NCBI RefSeq assembly: GCF_013315695.1
Contig: NZ_CP054353.1
DNA length: 64,000 nt
From: Escherichia coli
GTDB taxonomy: Bacteria > Pseudomonadota > Gammaproteobacteria > Enterobacterales > Enterobacteriaceae
Reading direction: 5' to 3' (one strand)
Of this stretch, positions 26,147-31,848 are shown piece after piece (within the stretch, counting starts at the first letter, position 1; each line of letters starts with the position of its first letter). The position numbers and the translations under genes are program-made. The notes under the pieces are model-generated. The model saw only the letters and a list, made by a program, of their open reading frames with translations, ran no database searches and was not told where the DNA came from.

Positions 26147-26992
26147 ATGAATGAGTTGGTGCAGATCCTGAAAAATACCCGTCAGCATTTAATGACGGGC
26201 GTTTCACACATGATTCCCTTCGTGGTATCGGGCGGTATTTTGCTGGCGGTTTCCGTCATGTTGTATGGCAAAGGCGCAGTGCCGGATGCCGTAGCCGATC
26301 CGAATCTGAAAAAACTGTTTGATATCGGCGTTGCAGGTTTGACGCTGATGGTGCCTTTCCTCGCCGCTTACATCGGTTATTCCATTGCAGAACGTTCTGC
26401 GCTGGCTCCATGCGCTATCGGTGCTTGGGTTGGTAACAGCTTTGGCGCGGGCTTCTTTGGTGCACTGATCGCCGGGATTATCGGCGGCATTGTGGTGCAT
26501 TACCTGAAGAAAATTCCGGTGCATAAAGTTCTGCGCTCGGTGATGCCAATCTTCATCATTCCTATCGTCGGCACACTGATTACCGCTGGCGTCATGATGT
26601 GGGGGCTGGCGACGCTGATTGGTCGTAAAAATTTCTCCGCAGAAGAGCGCGAAACCGGCAAGGCGGCACTGGTGATGGGCTGTGTTGGCGTTACTGAAGG
26701 GGCGATTCCTTTCGCCGCTGCCGATCCGCTGCGTGTTATTCCTTCCATCATGGTCGGTTCAGTTTGTGGTGCAGTAACTGCGGCGCTGGTCGGTGCGCAG
26801 TGCTATGCAGGCTGGGGTGGTCTGATTGTGCTGCCGGTGGTTGAAGGCAAGCTGGGTTATATCGCAGCAGTGGCTGTCGGAGCAGTGGTGACGGCTGTTT
26901 GTGTGAACGTGCTGAAAAGTCTGGCGCGTAAAAATGGGTCTTCGACTGATGAAAAAGAAGACGACCTGGATTTGGATTTTGAAATTAATTAA
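26147..26992 (+). CDS. frwC: PTS fructose-like EIIC component (shorter than recalled K-12 form)
   Basis: 281-aa polytopic membrane ORF MNELVQILKNTRQHLMTGVSHMIPFVVSGG; FrwC is about 359 aa in K-12 as I recall, so this copy may carry an in-frame internal deletion. Confidence 0.8.
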   Translation: MNELVQILKNTRQHLMTGVSHMIPFVVSGGILLAVSVMLYGKGAVPDAVADPNLKKLFDIGVAGLTLMVPFLAAYIGYSIAERSALAPCAIGAWVGNSFGAGFFGALIAGIIGGIVVHYLKKIPVHKVLRSVMPIFIIPIVGTLITAGVMMWGLATLIGRKNFSAEERETGKAALVMGCVGVTEGAIPFAAADPLRVIPSIMVGSVCGAVTAALVGAQCYAGWGGLIVLPVVEGKLGYIAAVAVGAVVTAVCVNVLKSLARKNGSSTDEKEDDLDLDFEIN

Positions 26993-27006: not shown

Positions 27007-27327
27007 ATGACGAAAATTATTGCAGTAACCGCGTGTCCATCTGGTGTTGCCCATACCTATATGGCGGCAGAGGCGCTGGAAAGTGCCGCGAAAGCGAAAG
27101 GCTGGGAAGTGAAAGTAGAAACCCAGGGCTCGATTGGTCTGGAAAATGAACTGACTGCGGAAGACGTGGCGAGCGCCGATATGGTGATTCTGACCAAAGA
27201 TATCGGCATCAAGTTTGAAGAGCGTTTTGCTGGCAAGACCATCGTGCGCGTCAACATCAGCGACGCGGTAAAACGCGCTGATGCCATTATGAGCAAAATT
27301 GAAGCTCACCTGGCACAAACCGCTTAA
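27007..27327 (+). CDS. frwB: PTS fructose-like EIIB component
   Basis: 106-aa ORF MTKIIAVTACPSGVAHTYMAAEALE with the EIIB active-site Cys motif. Confidence 0.9.
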   Translation: MTKIIAVTACPSGVAHTYMAAEALESAAKAKGWEVKVETQGSIGLENELTAEDVASADMVILTKDIGIKFEERFAGKTIVRVNISDAVKRADAIMSKIEAHLAQTA

Positions 27328-27377: not shown

Positions 27378-29675
27378 ATGACGAATCGTATCTCTCGCCT
27401 CAAAACTGCACTGTTTGCCAATACCCGTGAAATCTCGCTGGAGCGGGCGCTGCTTTATACCGCCAGCCATCGGCAAACCGAAGGCGAACCGGTGATATTG
27501 CGCCGGGCGAAAGCAACAGCGTATATCCTTGAACATGTTGAAATTTCGATTCGTGATGAAGAACTGATTGCCGGTAACCGTACGGTGAAACCGCGCGCCG
27601 GAATTATGTCGCCGGAAATGGACCCTTACTGGCTGCTGAAAGAGCTGGATCAATTCCCGACGCGTCCGCAGGACCGCTTTGCTATCAGCGAAGAAGATAA
27701 ACGTATCTACCGCGAAGAGTTGTTCCCGTACTGGGAAAAACGTTCGATGAAAGATTTCATTAACGGGCAGATGACGGATGAAGTAAAAGCCGCGACCAGC
27801 ACGCAGATTTTCAGCATCAACCAGACGGATAAAGGCCAGGGGCACATTATTATTGATTACCCGCGCCTGCTGAATCACGGGCTGGGTGAGCTGGTAGCGC
27901 AAATGCAGCAACATTGTCAGCAACAGCCGGAGAATCACTTTTATCAGGCCGCGTTGTTACTGCTGGAAGCCTCGCAGAAACACATTTTGCGTTACGCCGA
28001 ACTGGCGGAAACGATGGCGGCAAACTGCACAGATGCCCAGCGTCGCAAAGAGCTGCTGACTATTGCGGAGATCTCCCGCCATAACGCGCAACATAAGCCG
28101 CAGACGTTCTGGCAGGCGTGCCAGTTATTCTGGTACATGAACATCATTCTGCAATACGAATCCAACGCCAGTTCGCTGTCTTTAGGGCGCTTCGACCAGT
28201 ATATGTTGCCGTTCTATCAGGTATCATTAACCCAGGGCGAAGATCCGGCGTTCCTGAAAGAACTGCTCGAATCTTTATGGGTGAAATGCAACGACATCGT
28301 GCTGTTGCGCTCCACCAGTAGCGCGCGTTATTTCGCCGGTTTCCCGACCGGCTATACCGCACTGCTCGGCGGGTTAACTGAGAACGGACGTAGCGCGGTG
28401 AACGTACTTTCGTTCCTCTGTCTCGACGCCTATCAAAGTGTGCAATTACCGCAACCGAACCTGGGGGTGCGCACTAACGCCTTGATCGACACGCCGTTCC
28501 TGATGAAAACCGCCGAAACCATTCGCCTTGGCACCGGTATTCCGCAAATCTTCAACGATGAAGTGGTGGTGCCAGCGTTCCTCAACCGTGGCGTTTCGCT
28601 GGAAGATGCACGCGACTATTCCGTAGTGGGCTGTGTGGAATTATCTATTCCCGGCAGAACCTACGGCTTGCATGACATCGCGATGTTTAATCTGCTGAAA
28701 GTGATGGAAATCTGCCTGCATGAAAATGAAGGCAATGCTGCGCTGACTTATGAAGGTTTACTGGAGCAGATCCGCGCCAAGATCAGCCACTACATCACCC
28801 TGATGGTTGAGGGCAGCAATATTTGCGATATCGGTCACCGTGACTGGGCACCTGTACCGCTGCTCTCATCGTTTATCAGCGATTGTCTGGAAAAAGGCCG
28901 CGATATTACCGATGGCGGTGCGCGTTATAACTTCTCCGGCGTACAGGGGATCGGTATCGCCAACCTGAGCGATTCTCTCCATGCGTTGAAAGGTATGGTT
29001 TTTGAGCAACAGCGTTTAAGTTTTGACGAATTGCTGTCGGTATTAAAAGCCAACTTCGCAACGCCAGAAGGCGAAAAAGTCCGTGCTCGCTTAATTAACC
29101 GCTTCGAGAAATACGGTAACGATATCGACGAGGTGGATAACATCAGCGCCGAACTGTTACGCCACTACTGCAAAGAAGTGGAAAAATACCAGAACCCGCG
29201 CGGCGGCTACTTCACGCCGGGATCGTATACCGTTTCTGCTCACGTCCCGTTGGGATCGGTGGTTGGCGCGACGCCAGACGGTCGTTTTGCCGGGGAACAA
29301 CTGGCAGACGGTGGCTTGTCTCCCATGCTGGGCCAGGACGCACAAGGACCAACGGCGGTACTGAAATCAGTCAGCAAGCTCGATAACACGCTGCTTTCTA
29401 ACGGTACGTTGCTGAACGTGAAATTCACTCCGGCGACCCTGGAAGGTGAAGCGGGATTACGCAAACTGGCTGACTTCTTACGGGCATTTACCCAGCTTAA
29501 GTTACAACACATTCAGTTTAACGTGGTGAACGCCGACACGTTGCGGGAAGCGCAACAGCGCCCACAAGATTATGCCGGGCTGGTGGTGCGCGTTGCCGGA
29601 TACAGCGCCTTCTTTGTCGAACTGTCGAAGGAGATCCAGGATGACATCATCCGCCGGACAGCGCATCAGCTGTAA
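27378..29675 (+). CDS. pflD: Formate acetyltransferase 2 (glycyl-radical enzyme)
   Basis: 765-aa ORF of the PFL-like glycyl radical family, with the C-terminal glycyl-radical region (VVRVAGYSAFF). Confidence 0.9.
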   Translation: MTNRISRLKTALFANTREISLERALLYTASHRQTEGEPVILRRAKATAYILEHVEISIRDEELIAGNRTVKPRAGIMSPEMDPYWLLKELDQFPTRPQDRFAISEEDKRIYREELFPYWEKRSMKDFINGQMTDEVKAATSTQIFSINQTDKGQGHIIIDYPRLLNHGLGELVAQMQQHCQQQPENHFYQAALLLLEASQKHILRYAELAETMAANCTDAQRRKELLTIAEISRHNAQHKPQTFWQACQLFWYMNIILQYESNASSLSLGRFDQYMLPFYQVSLTQGEDPAFLKELLESLWVKCNDIVLLRSTSSARYFAGFPTGYTALLGGLTENGRSAVNVLSFLCLDAYQSVQLPQPNLGVRTNALIDTPFLMKTAETIRLGTGIPQIFNDEVVVPAFLNRGVSLEDARDYSVVGCVELSIPGRTYGLHDIAMFNLLKVMEICLHENEGNAALTYEGLLEQIRAKISHYITLMVEGSNICDIGHRDWAPVPLLSSFISDCLEKGRDITDGGARYNFSGVQGIGIANLSDSLHALKGMVFEQQRLSFDELLSVLKANFATPEGEKVRARLINRFEKYGNDIDEVDNISAELLRHYCKEVEKYQNPRGGYFTPGSYTVSAHVPLGSVVGATPDGRFAGEQLADGGLSPMLGQDAQGPTAVLKSVSKLDNTLLSNGTLLNVKFTPATLEGEAGLRKLADFLRAFTQLKLQHIQFNVVNADTLREAQQRPQDYAGLVVRVAGYSAFFVELSKEIQDDIIRRTAHQL

Positions 29676-30519
29676 CGTTGTGGAAACGCGCCGCGATGAT
29701 GTGGCGCGCATTTTCAACATTCAGCGTTATTCACTGAATGACGGCGAGGGCATTCGTACGGTGGTCTTTTTTAAAGGCTGTCCGCATCTTTGCCCGTGGT
29801 GTGCTAATCCGGAGTCGATCTCCGGCAAAATCCAGACGGTACGCAGAGAGGCGAAATGTCTGCACTGTGCGAAATGTTTGCGTGATGCGGATGAATGCCC
29901 GTCCGGGGCGTTTGAACGGATTGGTCGCGATATCAGCCTTGACGCGCTGGAACGGGAAGTGATGAAAGATGACATTTTCTTTCGCACGTCCGGCGGCGGC
30001 GTCACGCTTTCTGGCGGCGAAGTGTTAATGCAGGCGGAGTTTGCTACCCGTTTTTTACAGCGGCTTCGGTTGTGGGGTGTGTCATGCGCCATCGAAACTG
30101 CCGGAGACGCGCCGACCAGCAAGTTGTTACCGCTGGCGAAATTGTGCGATGAAGTGTTGTTCGATTTAAAAATTATGGACGCGACTCAGGCGCGGGATGT
30201 GGTGAAGATGAACCTGCCACGCGTGCTGGAGAATCTGCGTTTGCTGATTAGTGAGGGCGTCAACGTGATCCCGCGTTTACCGCTGATCCCTGGTTTCACG
30301 CTCAGCCGGGAGAATATGCAGCAGGCGCTGGACGTGCTGATCCCGCTGAATATCAGGCAGATCCATCTGTTACCGTTTCATCAGTACGGCGAACCGAAAT
30401 ACCGCCTGCTGGGGAAAACATGGTCGATGAAAGAGGTGTCTGCGCCGTCGTCAGCCGATGTGACAACGATGCGCGAAATGGCAGAACGGGCCGGATTTCA
30501 GGTTACCGTGGGAGGTTAA
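29641..30519 (+). CDS. pflC: Pyruvate formate-lyase 2 activating enzyme (radical SAM)
   Basis: ORF 29572..30519; start trimmed to MTSSAGQRISCNV giving 292 aa; CPHLCPWC radical-SAM cluster motif; overlaps pflD 3' end by 35 bp. Confidence 0.88.
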   Translation: MTSSAGQRISCNVVETRRDDVARIFNIQRYSLNDGEGIRTVVFFKGCPHLCPWCANPESISGKIQTVRREAKCLHCAKCLRDADECPSGAFERIGRDISLDALEREVMKDDIFFRTSGGGVTLSGGEVLMQAEFATRFLQRLRLWGVSCAIETAGDAPTSKLLPLAKLCDEVLFDLKIMDATQARDVVKMNLPRVLENLRLLISEGVNVIPRLPLIPGFTLSRENMQQALDVLIPLNIRQIHLLPFHQYGEPKYRLLGKTWSMKEVSAPSSADVTTMREMAERAGFQVTVGG

Positions 30520-30520
30520 A

Positions 30521-30862
30521 ATGGCATACCTGGTGGCAGTAACCGCCTGCGTAAGCGGCGTGGCGCATACTTATATGGCGGCGGAACGGCTGGAAAAGTT
30601 GTGCCTGTTAGAGAAGTGGGGCGTCAGCATTGAAACTCAGGGCGCGCTGGGAACGGAGAATCGTTTAGCGGACGAGGATATCCGTCGGGCGGATGTTGCG
30701 CTGTTAATTACGGATATCGAGCTTGCCGGTGCTGAGCGATTTGAACATTGCCGCTATGTGCAATGCAGCATCTACGCTTTCCTGCGTGAGCCGCAGCGGG
30801 TGATGAGCGCGGTGCGCAAAGTGCTTTCTGCGCCGCAGCAAACCCATCTTATTCTGGAGTAG
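30521..30862 (+). CDS. frwD: PTS fructose-like EIIB component 2
   Basis: 113-aa ORF MAYLVAVTACVSGVAHTYMAAERLE; EIIB family. Confidence 0.88.
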   Translation: MAYLVAVTACVSGVAHTYMAAERLEKLCLLEKWGVSIETQGALGTENRLADEDIRRADVALLITDIELAGAERFEHCRYVQCSIYAFLREPQRVMSAVRKVLSAPQQTHLILE

Positions 30863-31700: not shown

Positions 31701-31848
31701 GTTATTCCCTTAGGTATGTAGACGGGAAAACAGTAACTGGCATTATTAAAAAAGGCCACCTGAAAAGTGTGGCCTGAGGGGAGTTCGATGTAAACATTGC
31801 GGCAGTATCGCATCCGGCAAATAGCGCCAGACGCGATACAAAGGTCAT

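What the first reader, a model, noticed from the sequence alone, without database searches (positions are those of the whole stretch)
29641..29675. pflD–pflC 35-bp coding overlap inside the frwCB–pflDC–frwD cluster
The radical-SAM activase gene starts 35 bp before the end of the glycyl-radical enzyme gene, implying translational coupling of enzyme and activase. The frw PTS genes are interleaved with the pfl pair (frwC, frwB, pflD, pflC, frwD). This is the known arrangement but is worth recording because frwC in this strain looks altered.
Basis: partly seen in the sequence, partly recalled or inferred. Interest (0 to 1): 0.15.

Follow-up and report, generated by a model that had tools for sequence, protein, structure and literature searches.

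The report
Conserved 35-base pflD–pflC gene overlap
The activating-enzyme gene pflC really does start 35 bases inside the end of its partner enzyme gene pflD, an arrangement already annotated in E. coli K-12 and kept across gammaproteobacteria, so it is genuine but ordinary.

Summary
pflD (27378..29675, 765 aa) and pflC (29641..30519, 292 aa) share 35 bases on the + strand, exactly as RefSeq annotates K-12 and the source strain (E. coli MSB1_4I, 100% identical).

In 51 distinct gammaproteobacterial loci:
- The ATG is present in 50 of 51. It needs Asp codon GAT rather than GAC in pflD; 31 were expected from codon usage.
- The GGAG Shine-Dalgarno upstream is held at synonymous sites of pflD (Lys AAG 42/45, expected 15; Glu GAG 46/51, expected 22.5).
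- The pflD-stop to Cys-motif distance takes ten values, all 1 mod 3.
- 22 species have no other in-frame start before the conserved core.

Firmicute orthologues have no overlap. PflC residues 2-21 are hypervariable, so the overlap places the start rather than encoding function.

Translational coupling is plausible but not shown. The SD and AUG sit in predicted hairpins, which favours unfolding by ribosomes translating pflD over termination-reinitiation.

Gene order is as in K-12. frwC does carry a 234-bp in-frame deletion, found in 1 of 5,426 complete genomes. PflD is now known as a 1,5-anhydromannitol-6-phosphate-cleaving glycyl radical enzyme.

Verdict: already known, low interest.

The parts
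27378..29675 (+). pflD, a glycyl radical enzyme of 765 aa. The glycyl-radical motif RVAGY lies near the C-terminus, with tail ...SKEIQDDIIRRTAHQL*.
   Evidence: ORF. NCBIfam NF007437 scores 1725 bits against a cutoff of 1109. PDB 8yjo 'Probable dehydratase PflD' matches residues 1-765. Tail sequence.
29641..30519 (+). pflC, a radical-SAM glycyl-radical-enzyme activase of 292 aa. CxxxCxxC lies at residues 47-54. The conserved core starts near residue 22 (ARIFNIQRYS).
   Evidence: NF007483 627 bits against cutoff 326, profile positions 1-292. PflA residue 3 aligns to PflC residue 21. N-termini across species.
29641..29675 (+). The 35-base overlap. It encodes PflD residues D-D-I-I-R-R-T-A-H-Q-L-stop and, in the +1 frame, PflC M-T-S-S-A-G-Q-R-I-S-C.
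   Evidence: An identical 35-base overlap occurs in 50 of 51 gammaproteobacterial loci.
29628..29633 (+). Shine-Dalgarno AAGGAG of pflC, encoded by pflD codons Lys AAG and Glu GAG, 7 nt before the ATG.
   Evidence: AAG is used in 42/45 species (expected 15.4) and GAG in 46/51 (expected 22.5). Where Lys is replaced (CGG, CAG) the third-position G is kept.
29609..29633 (+). Predicted hairpin pairing CUUCUUUG (Phe-Phe codons) with CGAAGGAG (the SD), -7.0 kcal/mol.
   Evidence: 91% of cells are paired across 51 species, but mostly through amino-acid conservation and with little covariation.
29639..29652 (+). Predicted hairpin GGAUG/CAUCC enclosing the pflC AUG, -4.8 kcal/mol. P(unpaired) of the AUG is 0.01.
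   Evidence: 96.5% of cells are paired across 51 species.
29680..29682 (+). In-frame GTG (PflC codon 14), 4 nt after the pflD stop. It is the alternative start used by some database annotations (279-aa form). It has no SD and is not conserved.
   Evidence: The 279-aa cluster member P0004 appears.
26147..26992 (+). frwC with an in-frame 234-bp internal deletion, giving 281 aa instead of 359. The junction lies in the G-run at about 26599-26605.
   Evidence: The NCBIfam EIIC profile is matched in two stretches, the best being protein residues 1-155 on profile positions 1-155 of 359.
27007..27327 (+). frwB, PTS EIIB, 106 aa.
30521..30862 (+). frwD, PTS EIIB, 113 aa. Its ATG lies 1 nt after the pflC stop, with GGAGG at 30511-30515 inside pflC.

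Best explanation
pflC is translated from the AUG at 29641, inside the last 12 codons of pflD (11 sense codons and the stop), using the AAGGAG at 29628-29633 that is written into pflD's Lys-Glu codons. The 35-base overlap is an ancestral, selectively maintained feature of the gammaproteobacterial pflDC pair. Firmicute orthologues start the activase just after the enzyme's stop codon, which suggests (inference) that the gamma lineage moved the start upstream and turned the former spacer into a variable, functionally unimportant N-terminal leader (PflC residues 2-21). That the start site is real and conserved is shown here. That PflC synthesis depends on pflD translation is inferred. In the free mRNA the SD and AUG are predicted to be locked in two small hairpins. 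Ribosomes finishing pflD would open these hairpins and so tie activase output to enzyme output (RNA-unfolding coupling), rather than by back-scanning reinitiation over 35 nt. The operon as a whole is the frw/pfl 1,5-anhydromannitol pathway. According to the literature, PflD is a glycyl radical enzyme that cleaves 1,5-anhydromannitol-6-phosphate.
For: - Same overlap annotated by RefSeq in the identical strain and in K-12.
- Across 51 distinct gammaproteobacterial loci (Enterobacterales, Orbales, Pasteurellales, Vibrio), the first Asp codon is GAT in 50/51 against 31.2 expected. Lys is AAG in 42/45 against 15.4 expected, and Glu is GAG in 46/51 against 22.5 expected. Neighbouring synonymous sites (Ile ATC/ATT, Arg, Thr, Ala, Ser, Leu) vary freely.
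- The distance from the pflD stop to the CxxxCxxC motif takes ten values (100, 103, 109, 112, 118, 121, 127, 130, 151, 154 nt), all 1 mod 3. No stop occurs in the pflC frame.
- 22 of 51 species have no in-frame ATG/GTG/TTG between the pflD stop and the conserved core.
- The E. coli alternatives (ATG 29572, GTG 29680, GTG 29701) have no SD. The ATG 29572 equivalent is closed off by an upstream stop in E. albertii.
- Firmicute orthologues start 28-31 codons before the Cys motif, mostly 2-21 nt after the GRE stop (one, L063, overlaps it by 1-4 nt), with variable frame.
- P(unpaired) is 0.17 for the SD and 0.01 for the AUG, against 0.38-0.55 for frwB, pflD and frwD. The MFE z-score is -2.19.
- Review PMC12548453 reports that reinitiation coupling is lost by -25 nt, and that long overlaps such as MS2 coat-lysis (-50) use unfolding.
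- PflD function comes from Ma et al. 2024 as cited in PMC12441222, and from PDB 8yjo.
Against: - No direct evidence on the PflC N-terminus was available, neither initiation-site ribosome profiling nor N-terminal proteomics.
- The hairpins are modest (-7.0 and -4.8 kcal/mol). Their conservation is largely explained by the conserved PflD amino-acid sequence, and covariation is weak, so selection for structure is unproven.
- A strong SD could permit independent initiation.
- The second Asp codon (GAC 46/51 against 19.8 expected) and Gln CAG (47/51 against 37.1 expected) are also unusually fixed. Some of the synonymous constraint may therefore have another cause.
- In E. coli itself both downstream GTGs would still give a protein with an intact core. 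Some database entries use the 279-aa form.
Confidence: 0.8

Rival explanations
1. The overlap is an annotation artefact. On this view PflC really starts at the in-frame GTG at 29680 (279 aa) or 29701, downstream of the pflD stop, as in Firmicute orthologues.
For: GTG 29680 lies 4 nt after the pflD stop, 33 codons before the Cys motif, close to where Firmicute orthologues start at 28-31 codons. The conserved core and the PflA alignment begin only at residue 21-22. A 279-aa form is present in public annotations on 41 contigs.
Against: Neither GTG has an SD. A start codon at this position is missing in many species, and 22/51 have no candidate there at all. Linker indels are always multiples of 3, which is unexpected for an untranslated spacer. 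The ATG and SD are fixed at pflD synonymous sites well above expectation.
Confidence: 0.05
2. Two isoforms are made in E. coli. A 292-aa protein arises from SD-driven initiation at AUG 29641, and a 279-aa protein arises when ribosomes terminating at the pflD stop reinitiate at the nearest start, GUG 29680 (+4 nt).
For: Post-termination ribosomes favour the closest start codon (review PMC12548453). GUG 29680 is more accessible than AUG 29641 in the predicted ensemble: P(unpaired) 0.35 against 0.01 for the start codon, and 0.50 against 0.17 for the region upstream. A GTG or ATG at codon 13/14 is present in about 20 of 51 species, including Escherichia, most of the Citrobacter loci and several Enterobacter.
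Against: The position is not conserved as a start outside that subset, where it is simply a Val, Ile or Met position. No experimental data exist. Both products would be functionally equivalent, so there is no evident selection.
Confidence: 0.12
3. The overlap is real, but pflC is initiated independently of pflD translation and there is no positive coupling. The conserved ATG and SD simply mark an ordinary ribosome-binding site that happens to lie in coding sequence.
For: AAGGAG with 7-nt spacing is a near-consensus SD. The hairpins are weak and lack clear covariation. Coupling was lost at -25 nt in synthetic constructs.
Against: Every ribosome translating pflD must pass through the pflC initiation region, so the two cannot be fully independent. 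The SD and AUG are the most sequestered start site in the operon. Pairing potential is retained in 91-96% of cells across 51 species.
Confidence: 0.3

Closest known systems
E. coli K-12 pflD (b3951) / pflC (b3952) as annotated in RefSeq
   Same: Same genes, same order frwC-frwB-pflD-pflC-frwD, identical 35-base overlap and identical PflC N-terminus. PflC is 98% identical to the K-12 protein.
   Different: Only strain-level differences: five PflC substitutions, and the frwC gene upstream carries a 234-bp in-frame deletion.
Firmicute orthologues of the same glycyl radical enzyme/activase pair (Clostridium, Streptococcus, Enterococcus loci L054-L079)
   Same: The same GRE tail (RVAGYSA...IQDDII..) is followed directly by the activase gene.
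   Different: There is no long overlap. The activase starts mostly 2-21 nt after the stop (one locus, L063, overlaps it by 1-4 nt), with its own SD in the spacer, 28-31 codons before the Cys motif. The frame relative to the GRE varies.
Phage MS2 coat-lysis gene pair (-50 nt spacing), the textbook RNA-unfolding type of translational coupling (review PMC12548453)
   Same: The downstream start lies tens of nucleotides inside the upstream ORF, and the start region is predicted to be structured. A terminating ribosome would not occlude it (for MS2; here).
   Different: Coupling has not been tested for pflDC. The pflC site has a strong SD. The hairpins here are small and lack covariation support.
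ATGA / TGATG (-4 / -1) overlapping pairs coupled by termination-reinitiation (Huber et al. 2019, PMC6728339)
   Same: Co-directional neighbouring genes in one operon whose products act together (the enzyme and its activating enzyme), a kind of pair for which coupled translation is often proposed.
   Different: The spacing here is -35 rather than -4 or -1. Reinitiation by back-scanning over that distance is not supported by the synthetic-construct data summarised.

Membership tests
Glycyl-radical-enzyme activating enzyme (radical SAM; NCBIfam NF007483 equivalog / TIGR02494 PFLE_PFLC) | Full-length profile match above the curated cutoff | tested here: met
   NF007483 scores 627 bits against cutoff 326 over residues 1-292 of a 292-position profile. 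TIGR02494 scores 261 bits against 174.
Glycyl-radical-enzyme activating enzyme (radical SAM; NCBIfam NF007483 equivalog / TIGR02494 PFLE_PFLC) | CxxxCxxC radical-SAM cluster motif near the N-terminus | tested here: met
   C47-PHL-C51-PW-C54. It is conserved in all 51 gamma loci and aligns to the PflA motif.
Glycyl-radical-enzyme activating enzyme (radical SAM; NCBIfam NF007483 equivalog / TIGR02494 PFLE_PFLC) | Activates its cognate GRE by generating the glycyl radical | not testable with these tools
   Biochemical property. Only adjacency to pflD is shown here.
PFL2/glycerol-dehydratase-type glycyl radical enzyme (PflD) | Full-length profile match and C-terminal RVxG glycyl-radical motif | tested here: met
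   NF007437 scores 1725 bits against cutoff 1109 and TIGR01774 scores 1347 bits. RVAGY is in the tail. PDB 8yjo PflD matches residues 1-765.
PFL2/glycerol-dehydratase-type glycyl radical enzyme (PflD) | Formate C-acetyltransferase (pyruvate formate-lyase) activity, as the RefSeq product name says | not testable with these tools
   The true PFL model TIGR01255 scores only 121 bits against cutoff 994. The literature assigns cleavage of 1,5-anhydromannitol-6-phosphate to 1-deoxyfructose-6-phosphate instead (Ma et al. 2024, cited in PMC12441222).
Translationally coupled overlapping gene pair | Co-directional genes with the downstream start codon and SD inside the upstream ORF, conserved across species | tested here: met
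Translationally coupled overlapping gene pair | Translation of the downstream gene depends on translation of the upstream gene | not testable with these tools
   Only predicted sequestration of the SD and AUG is available. No reporter or profiling data exist.
Termination-reinitiation coupling (-4/-1 class) | Stop and start codons overlap or lie within a few nucleotides | tested here: not met
   The spacing is -35 nt. pflC-frwD (+1 nt) would fit this class, but pflD-pflC does not.
Full-length PTS fructose-type EIIC (FrwC, NF007787) | Continuous match to the 359-position profile | tested here: not met
   The protein is 281 aa and the match is split into two stretches, the best being protein residues 1-155 on profile positions 1-155 of 359. 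78 codons are missing relative to K-12.

The most novel reading that the evidence does not exclude
The -35 overlap could be a conserved RNA-unfolding coupling device that fixes the activase-to-enzyme ratio. On this reading, E. coli additionally makes a second, 279-aa PflC isoform by reinitiation at GUG 29680 just after the pflD stop. That would make pflDC a natural cellular counterpart of the MS2 coat-lysis arrangement, testable with one pflD-silent point mutation (GAT to GAC).
Probability: 0.12. Interest if true: 0.3.

Novelty: already known. Interest (0 to 1): 0.1.

Why it matters
It matters little beyond annotation confidence. The analysis shows that a relatively long (35-base) same-strand overlap, of a kind often suspected to be a start-codon miscall, is genuine and selectively maintained across gammaproteobacteria. 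It also settles which of the competing database starts (292 aa or 279 aa) is best supported. It offers a clean experimental handle: the pflD-silent change GAT to GAC removes the pflC start, which is useful for anyone studying expression of the recently characterised 1,5-anhydromannitol glycyl-radical pathway. The frwC deletion suggests that this strain's lineage may have lost uptake of the pathway's substrate while keeping the enzyme and activase intact.

Tried and rejected
- Upstream ATG 29572 (the longest ORF, 315 aa) was rejected. It has no SD and its equivalent is closed off by a stop in E. albertii and other species.
- Downstream GTG 29680 and GTG 29701 were rejected as the main start. 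They have no SD and are not conserved. 22 of 51 species have no candidate start in that interval.
- The covariation test of the SD/AUG hairpins and an outer helix was inconclusive. Pairing potential is retained, but it is explained mostly by amino-acid conservation. The outer helix is poorly kept (75%). I therefore do not claim a selected RNA structure.
- I tried to read Ma et al. 2024 (pmid 39283600) directly, but it is not held. PflD function is therefore cited second-hand from PMC12441222.
- No paper found by the two literature searches that named pflD/pflC concerns the pflC translation start.
- I considered that the frwC deletion might be an assembly artefact and rejected it. The exact 281-aa protein is on record from 280 contigs and several independent NCBI accessions.
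- Structure prediction of PflC was considered and skipped. The hypervariable length and sequence of residues 2-21 already argue against a structured N-terminal extension.
Full report
**What is there.**
The window is Escherichia coli. The 5.2-kb stretch around the finding is 100% identical to strain MSB1_4I (NZ_LR898874.1) and about 97-98% identical to other E. coli.

The ORF table gives pflD at 27378..29675 (765 aa) and a pflC-frame ORF open from 29572 to 30519. Reading the sequence gives these features:
- AAGGAG at 29628-29633.
- ATG at 29641-29643.
- The pflD stop TAA at 29673-29675.

Starting at 29641, pflC encodes 292 aa. The shared stretch is therefore 29641..29675, which is 35 bases, with pflC in the +1 frame of pflD. 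RefSeq annotates exactly this in MSB1_4I and in K-12 MG1655.

**Identity of the genes.**
PflC matches the NCBIfam equivalog for this activase over its whole length (627 bits against cutoff 326). It carries the radical-SAM motif C47-x3-C51-x2-C54.

PflD matches NF007437 (1725 bits) and the solved structure 8yjo, 'Probable dehydratase PflD'. It scores far below the cutoff of the true pyruvate formate-lyase model (121 bits against 994). So the RefSeq product name 'formate C-acetyltransferase' is a family label, not a demonstrated function.

A 2025 review (PMC12441222) cites Ma et al., J Am Chem Soc 2024, 146:26187. According to that review:
- PflD cleaves 1,5-anhydromannitol-6-phosphate to 1-deoxyfructose-6-phosphate.
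- YbiW does the same for 1,5-anhydroglucitol-6-phosphate.
- A PTS performs the initial phosphorylation.

I could not read the primary paper.

The neighbourhood fits this pathway. frwC, frwB, pflD, pflC and frwD lie on one strand. The divergent ptsA(ptsP-like)-fsaB-gldA unit lies upstream, and the AraC-type regulator yijO lies downstream.

**Is the overlapping start real?**
I fetched 80 loci encoding PflC relatives from one genome per species. I then analysed the 51 distinct gammaproteobacterial junctions (Escherichia, Citrobacter, Enterobacter, Klebsiella, Yersinia, Edwardsiella, Serratia, Hafnia, Rahnella, Gilliamella, Zophobihabitans, Necropsobacter, Vibrio). Four independent lines agree.

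1. *Start codon.* The ATG needs the first of two Asp codons in pflD to be GAT rather than GAC.
   - It is GAT in 50 of 51 species, against 31.2 expected from each gene's own Asp codon usage.
2. *Shine-Dalgarno.* It needs Lys AAG and Glu GAG.
   - AAG is used in 42 of 45 species (expected 15.4) and GAG in 46 of 51 (expected 22.5).
   - Where Lys is replaced by Arg or Gln, the codon still ends in G, which keeps GGAG.
   - Neighbouring synonymous sites (Ile ATC/ATT 19:32, 24:27 and 34:17; Ser, Leu, Arg, Thr, Ala) vary freely in the same alignment, so the set is not simply too closely related.
3. *Reading frame.* The distance from the pflD stop to the Cys motif takes ten different values from 100 to 154 nt.
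   - Every value is 1 mod 3, and the pflC frame is never interrupted.
   - That is expected if the variable linker is translated from a start inside pflD. It is not expected for an untranslated spacer.
   - In the Firmicute orthologues, where the activase starts after the stop, the frame relation varies.
4. *Absence of alternatives.* In 22 of 51 species there is no in-frame ATG, GTG or TTG between the pflD stop and the conserved core.

The E. coli alternatives also look poor:
- ATG 29572, GTG 29680 and GTG 29701 have no purine-rich SD upstream.
- The ATG 29572 equivalent is closed off by a stop in E. albertii.

The refutation therefore fails, and the annotated start is the best supported.

Public databases do contain a 279-aa version of the protein, which corresponds to a start at GTG 29680. 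The ambiguity is therefore real in practice.

**What the overlap encodes.**
pflC's second codon position coincides with pflD's wobble position. Silent changes in pflD therefore rewrite the PflC N-terminus, for example MTSSAGQRISC, MTLFAGPHINC and MISSAELLINC.

Residues 12-21, and up to about 40 in Orbales, Pasteurellales and some Vibrio, vary in both sequence and length. Conservation begins at ARIFNIQRYS (residue 22). E. coli PflA residue 3 aligns with PflC residue 21.

The N-terminal leader of about 20 residues is thus unconstrained as protein. The overlap seems to exist to place the initiation site, not to encode a function.

Firmicute orthologues start 28-31 codons before the Cys motif. Most start 2-21 nt after the enzyme's stop codon and have their own SD; one (L063) overlaps the stop by 1-4 nt. 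I infer that the gamma lineage shifted the start upstream and absorbed the old spacer into the ORF.

The Vibrio loci vary on this pattern:
- Three Vibrio loci (L049, L050, L053) have lost the SD (AAA GAA), and V. hannami (L046) has lost the ATG (GAC).
- All four have an in-frame ATG that overlaps pflD by 11 nt.
- That ATG is preceded by CGA AGA (GAAGA).
- The start may have moved there while still overlapping.

**How it probably works.**
This part is inferred, not shown. Folding 121 nt around the start puts the SD in a hairpin with the Phe-Phe codons upstream (CUUCUUUG/CGAAGGAG, -7.0 kcal/mol). It puts the AUG in a second hairpin (GGAUG/CAUCC, -4.8 kcal/mol). The z-score against shuffles is -2.19.

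In the ensemble, P(unpaired) is 0.17 for the SD and 0.01 for the AUG. The other start sites in the cluster are more open:

| Start site | P(unpaired), SD | P(unpaired), start codon |
|---|---|---|
| pflC (29641) | 0.17 | 0.01 |
| frwB | 0.44 | 0.51 |
| pflD | 0.54 | 0.50 |
| frwD | 0.38 | 0.55 |
| frwC | 0.31 | 0.11 |

pflC's start is the most sequestered in the cluster, with frwC the next closest.

Across the 51 species the two hairpins keep 91% and 96.5% of cells paired. This follows largely from the conserved PflD peptide (FF...KE, DDII). Covariation is weak and the outer helix is poorly kept. I do not claim a selected RNA structure.

A recent review (PMC12548453) reports two relevant points:
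- In synthetic constructs, coupling decayed with increasing overlap and was absent at -25 nt.
- Long overlaps such as MS2 coat-lysis (-50) work by RNA unfolding.

At -35, a ribosome sitting on the pflD stop would not occlude the pflC initiation region. The most likely mechanism is therefore SD-driven de novo initiation that is helped, and thereby tied to pflD translation, by ribosomes melting these hairpins.

Independent initiation without positive coupling remains a serious rival (about 0.3). A second isoform arising by reinitiation at GUG 29680 cannot be excluded in E. coli (about 0.12).

**The frwC remark.**
Against K-12 it lacks 234 bp in frame, which is 78 codons, giving 281 aa against 359. 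The start and stop are unchanged.

The deletion lies between two imperfect direct repeats, ATG(T)GGGGCT(T)GG, and its junction falls in the G-run at about 26599-26605.

Other evidence on the deletion:
- *Profile match.* The EIIC profile is matched in two separate stretches rather than continuously. The best stretch is protein residues 1-155 on profile positions 1-155 of 359.
- *Frequency.* Only MSB1_4I showed the junction as a single uninterrupted match among the records listed from the 5,426 complete E. coli genomes. Every other listed record had it split into two pieces 234 bp apart, and 5,396 genomes retain the deleted segment.
- *Reality of the allele.* The exact 281-aa protein is on record from 280 contigs under several independent accessions. 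It is a real allele of a circulating lineage, not an assembly error.
- *State of the neighbours.* pflD, pflC, frwB and frwD are intact.

A 78-residue loss from a membrane EIIC domain probably abolishes transport, but that was not tested.

**Comparison with what is known, and verdict.**
The overlap, the gene order and the protein identities are all already in the K-12 annotation. This analysis adds comparative evidence that the long overlap is genuine and maintained, and a mechanistic preference for unfolding over reinitiation.

It is an ordinary, already known feature and of low interest (0.1).

Noticed in passing
window 26147..26992 (junction about 26599-26605): frwC carries an in-frame 234-bp (78-codon) deletion between imperfect direct repeats ATG(T)GGGGCT(T)GG. 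Only MSB1_4I showed the uninterrupted junction among the records listed from 5,426 complete E. coli genomes. The exact 281-aa protein is nevertheless on record from 280 contigs, so it is a real lineage allele. RefSeq calls it 'PTS EIIC component', not a pseudogene.
   Followed up: yes
window 27378..29675: The RefSeq product name 'formate C-acetyltransferase' for PflD is outdated. The true PFL model scores 121 bits against a cutoff of 994. The literature (Ma et al. 2024, via PMC12441222) assigns cleavage of 1,5-anhydromannitol-6-phosphate, which fits the neighbouring frw PTS, fsaB and gldA genes.
   Followed up: partly
window 29680..29682; protein P0004: Public databases hold a 279-aa PflC annotation (41 contigs) that starts at the in-frame GTG 4 nt after the pflD stop. 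Annotation pipelines therefore disagree on this start.
   Followed up: partly
L046, L049, L050, L053 (Vibrio), and L023 (Edwardsiella hoshinae): The Vibrio loci have lost the SD (AAA GAA) or, in L046, the -35 ATG (GAC). They have an in-frame ATG that overlaps pflD by 11 nt, preceded by CGA AGA. The start may have shifted while remaining inside pflD. E. hoshinae has both ATGs.
   Followed up: partly
window 30511..30523 and 30849..30862: frwD's ATG (30521) lies 1 nt after the pflC stop, with GGAGG (30511-30515) inside pflC. That is a classic close-spacing junction. frwD and the convergent yijO overlap by 14 nt at their 3' ends.
   Followed up: no
window 31701..31848 (yijO-eptC intergenic): This spacer is 148 nt here and 214 nt in K-12 MG1655, a 66-nt difference whose nature was not examined.
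   Followed up: no
L060 (Kluyvera genomosp. 3 CP022114.1): A PflC relative is present, but no intact GRE C-terminal tail (RVAGYSA...) was found directly upstream, and the tblastn E-value is weaker than its identity would suggest. It may be a disrupted pflD/pflC locus.
   Followed up: no
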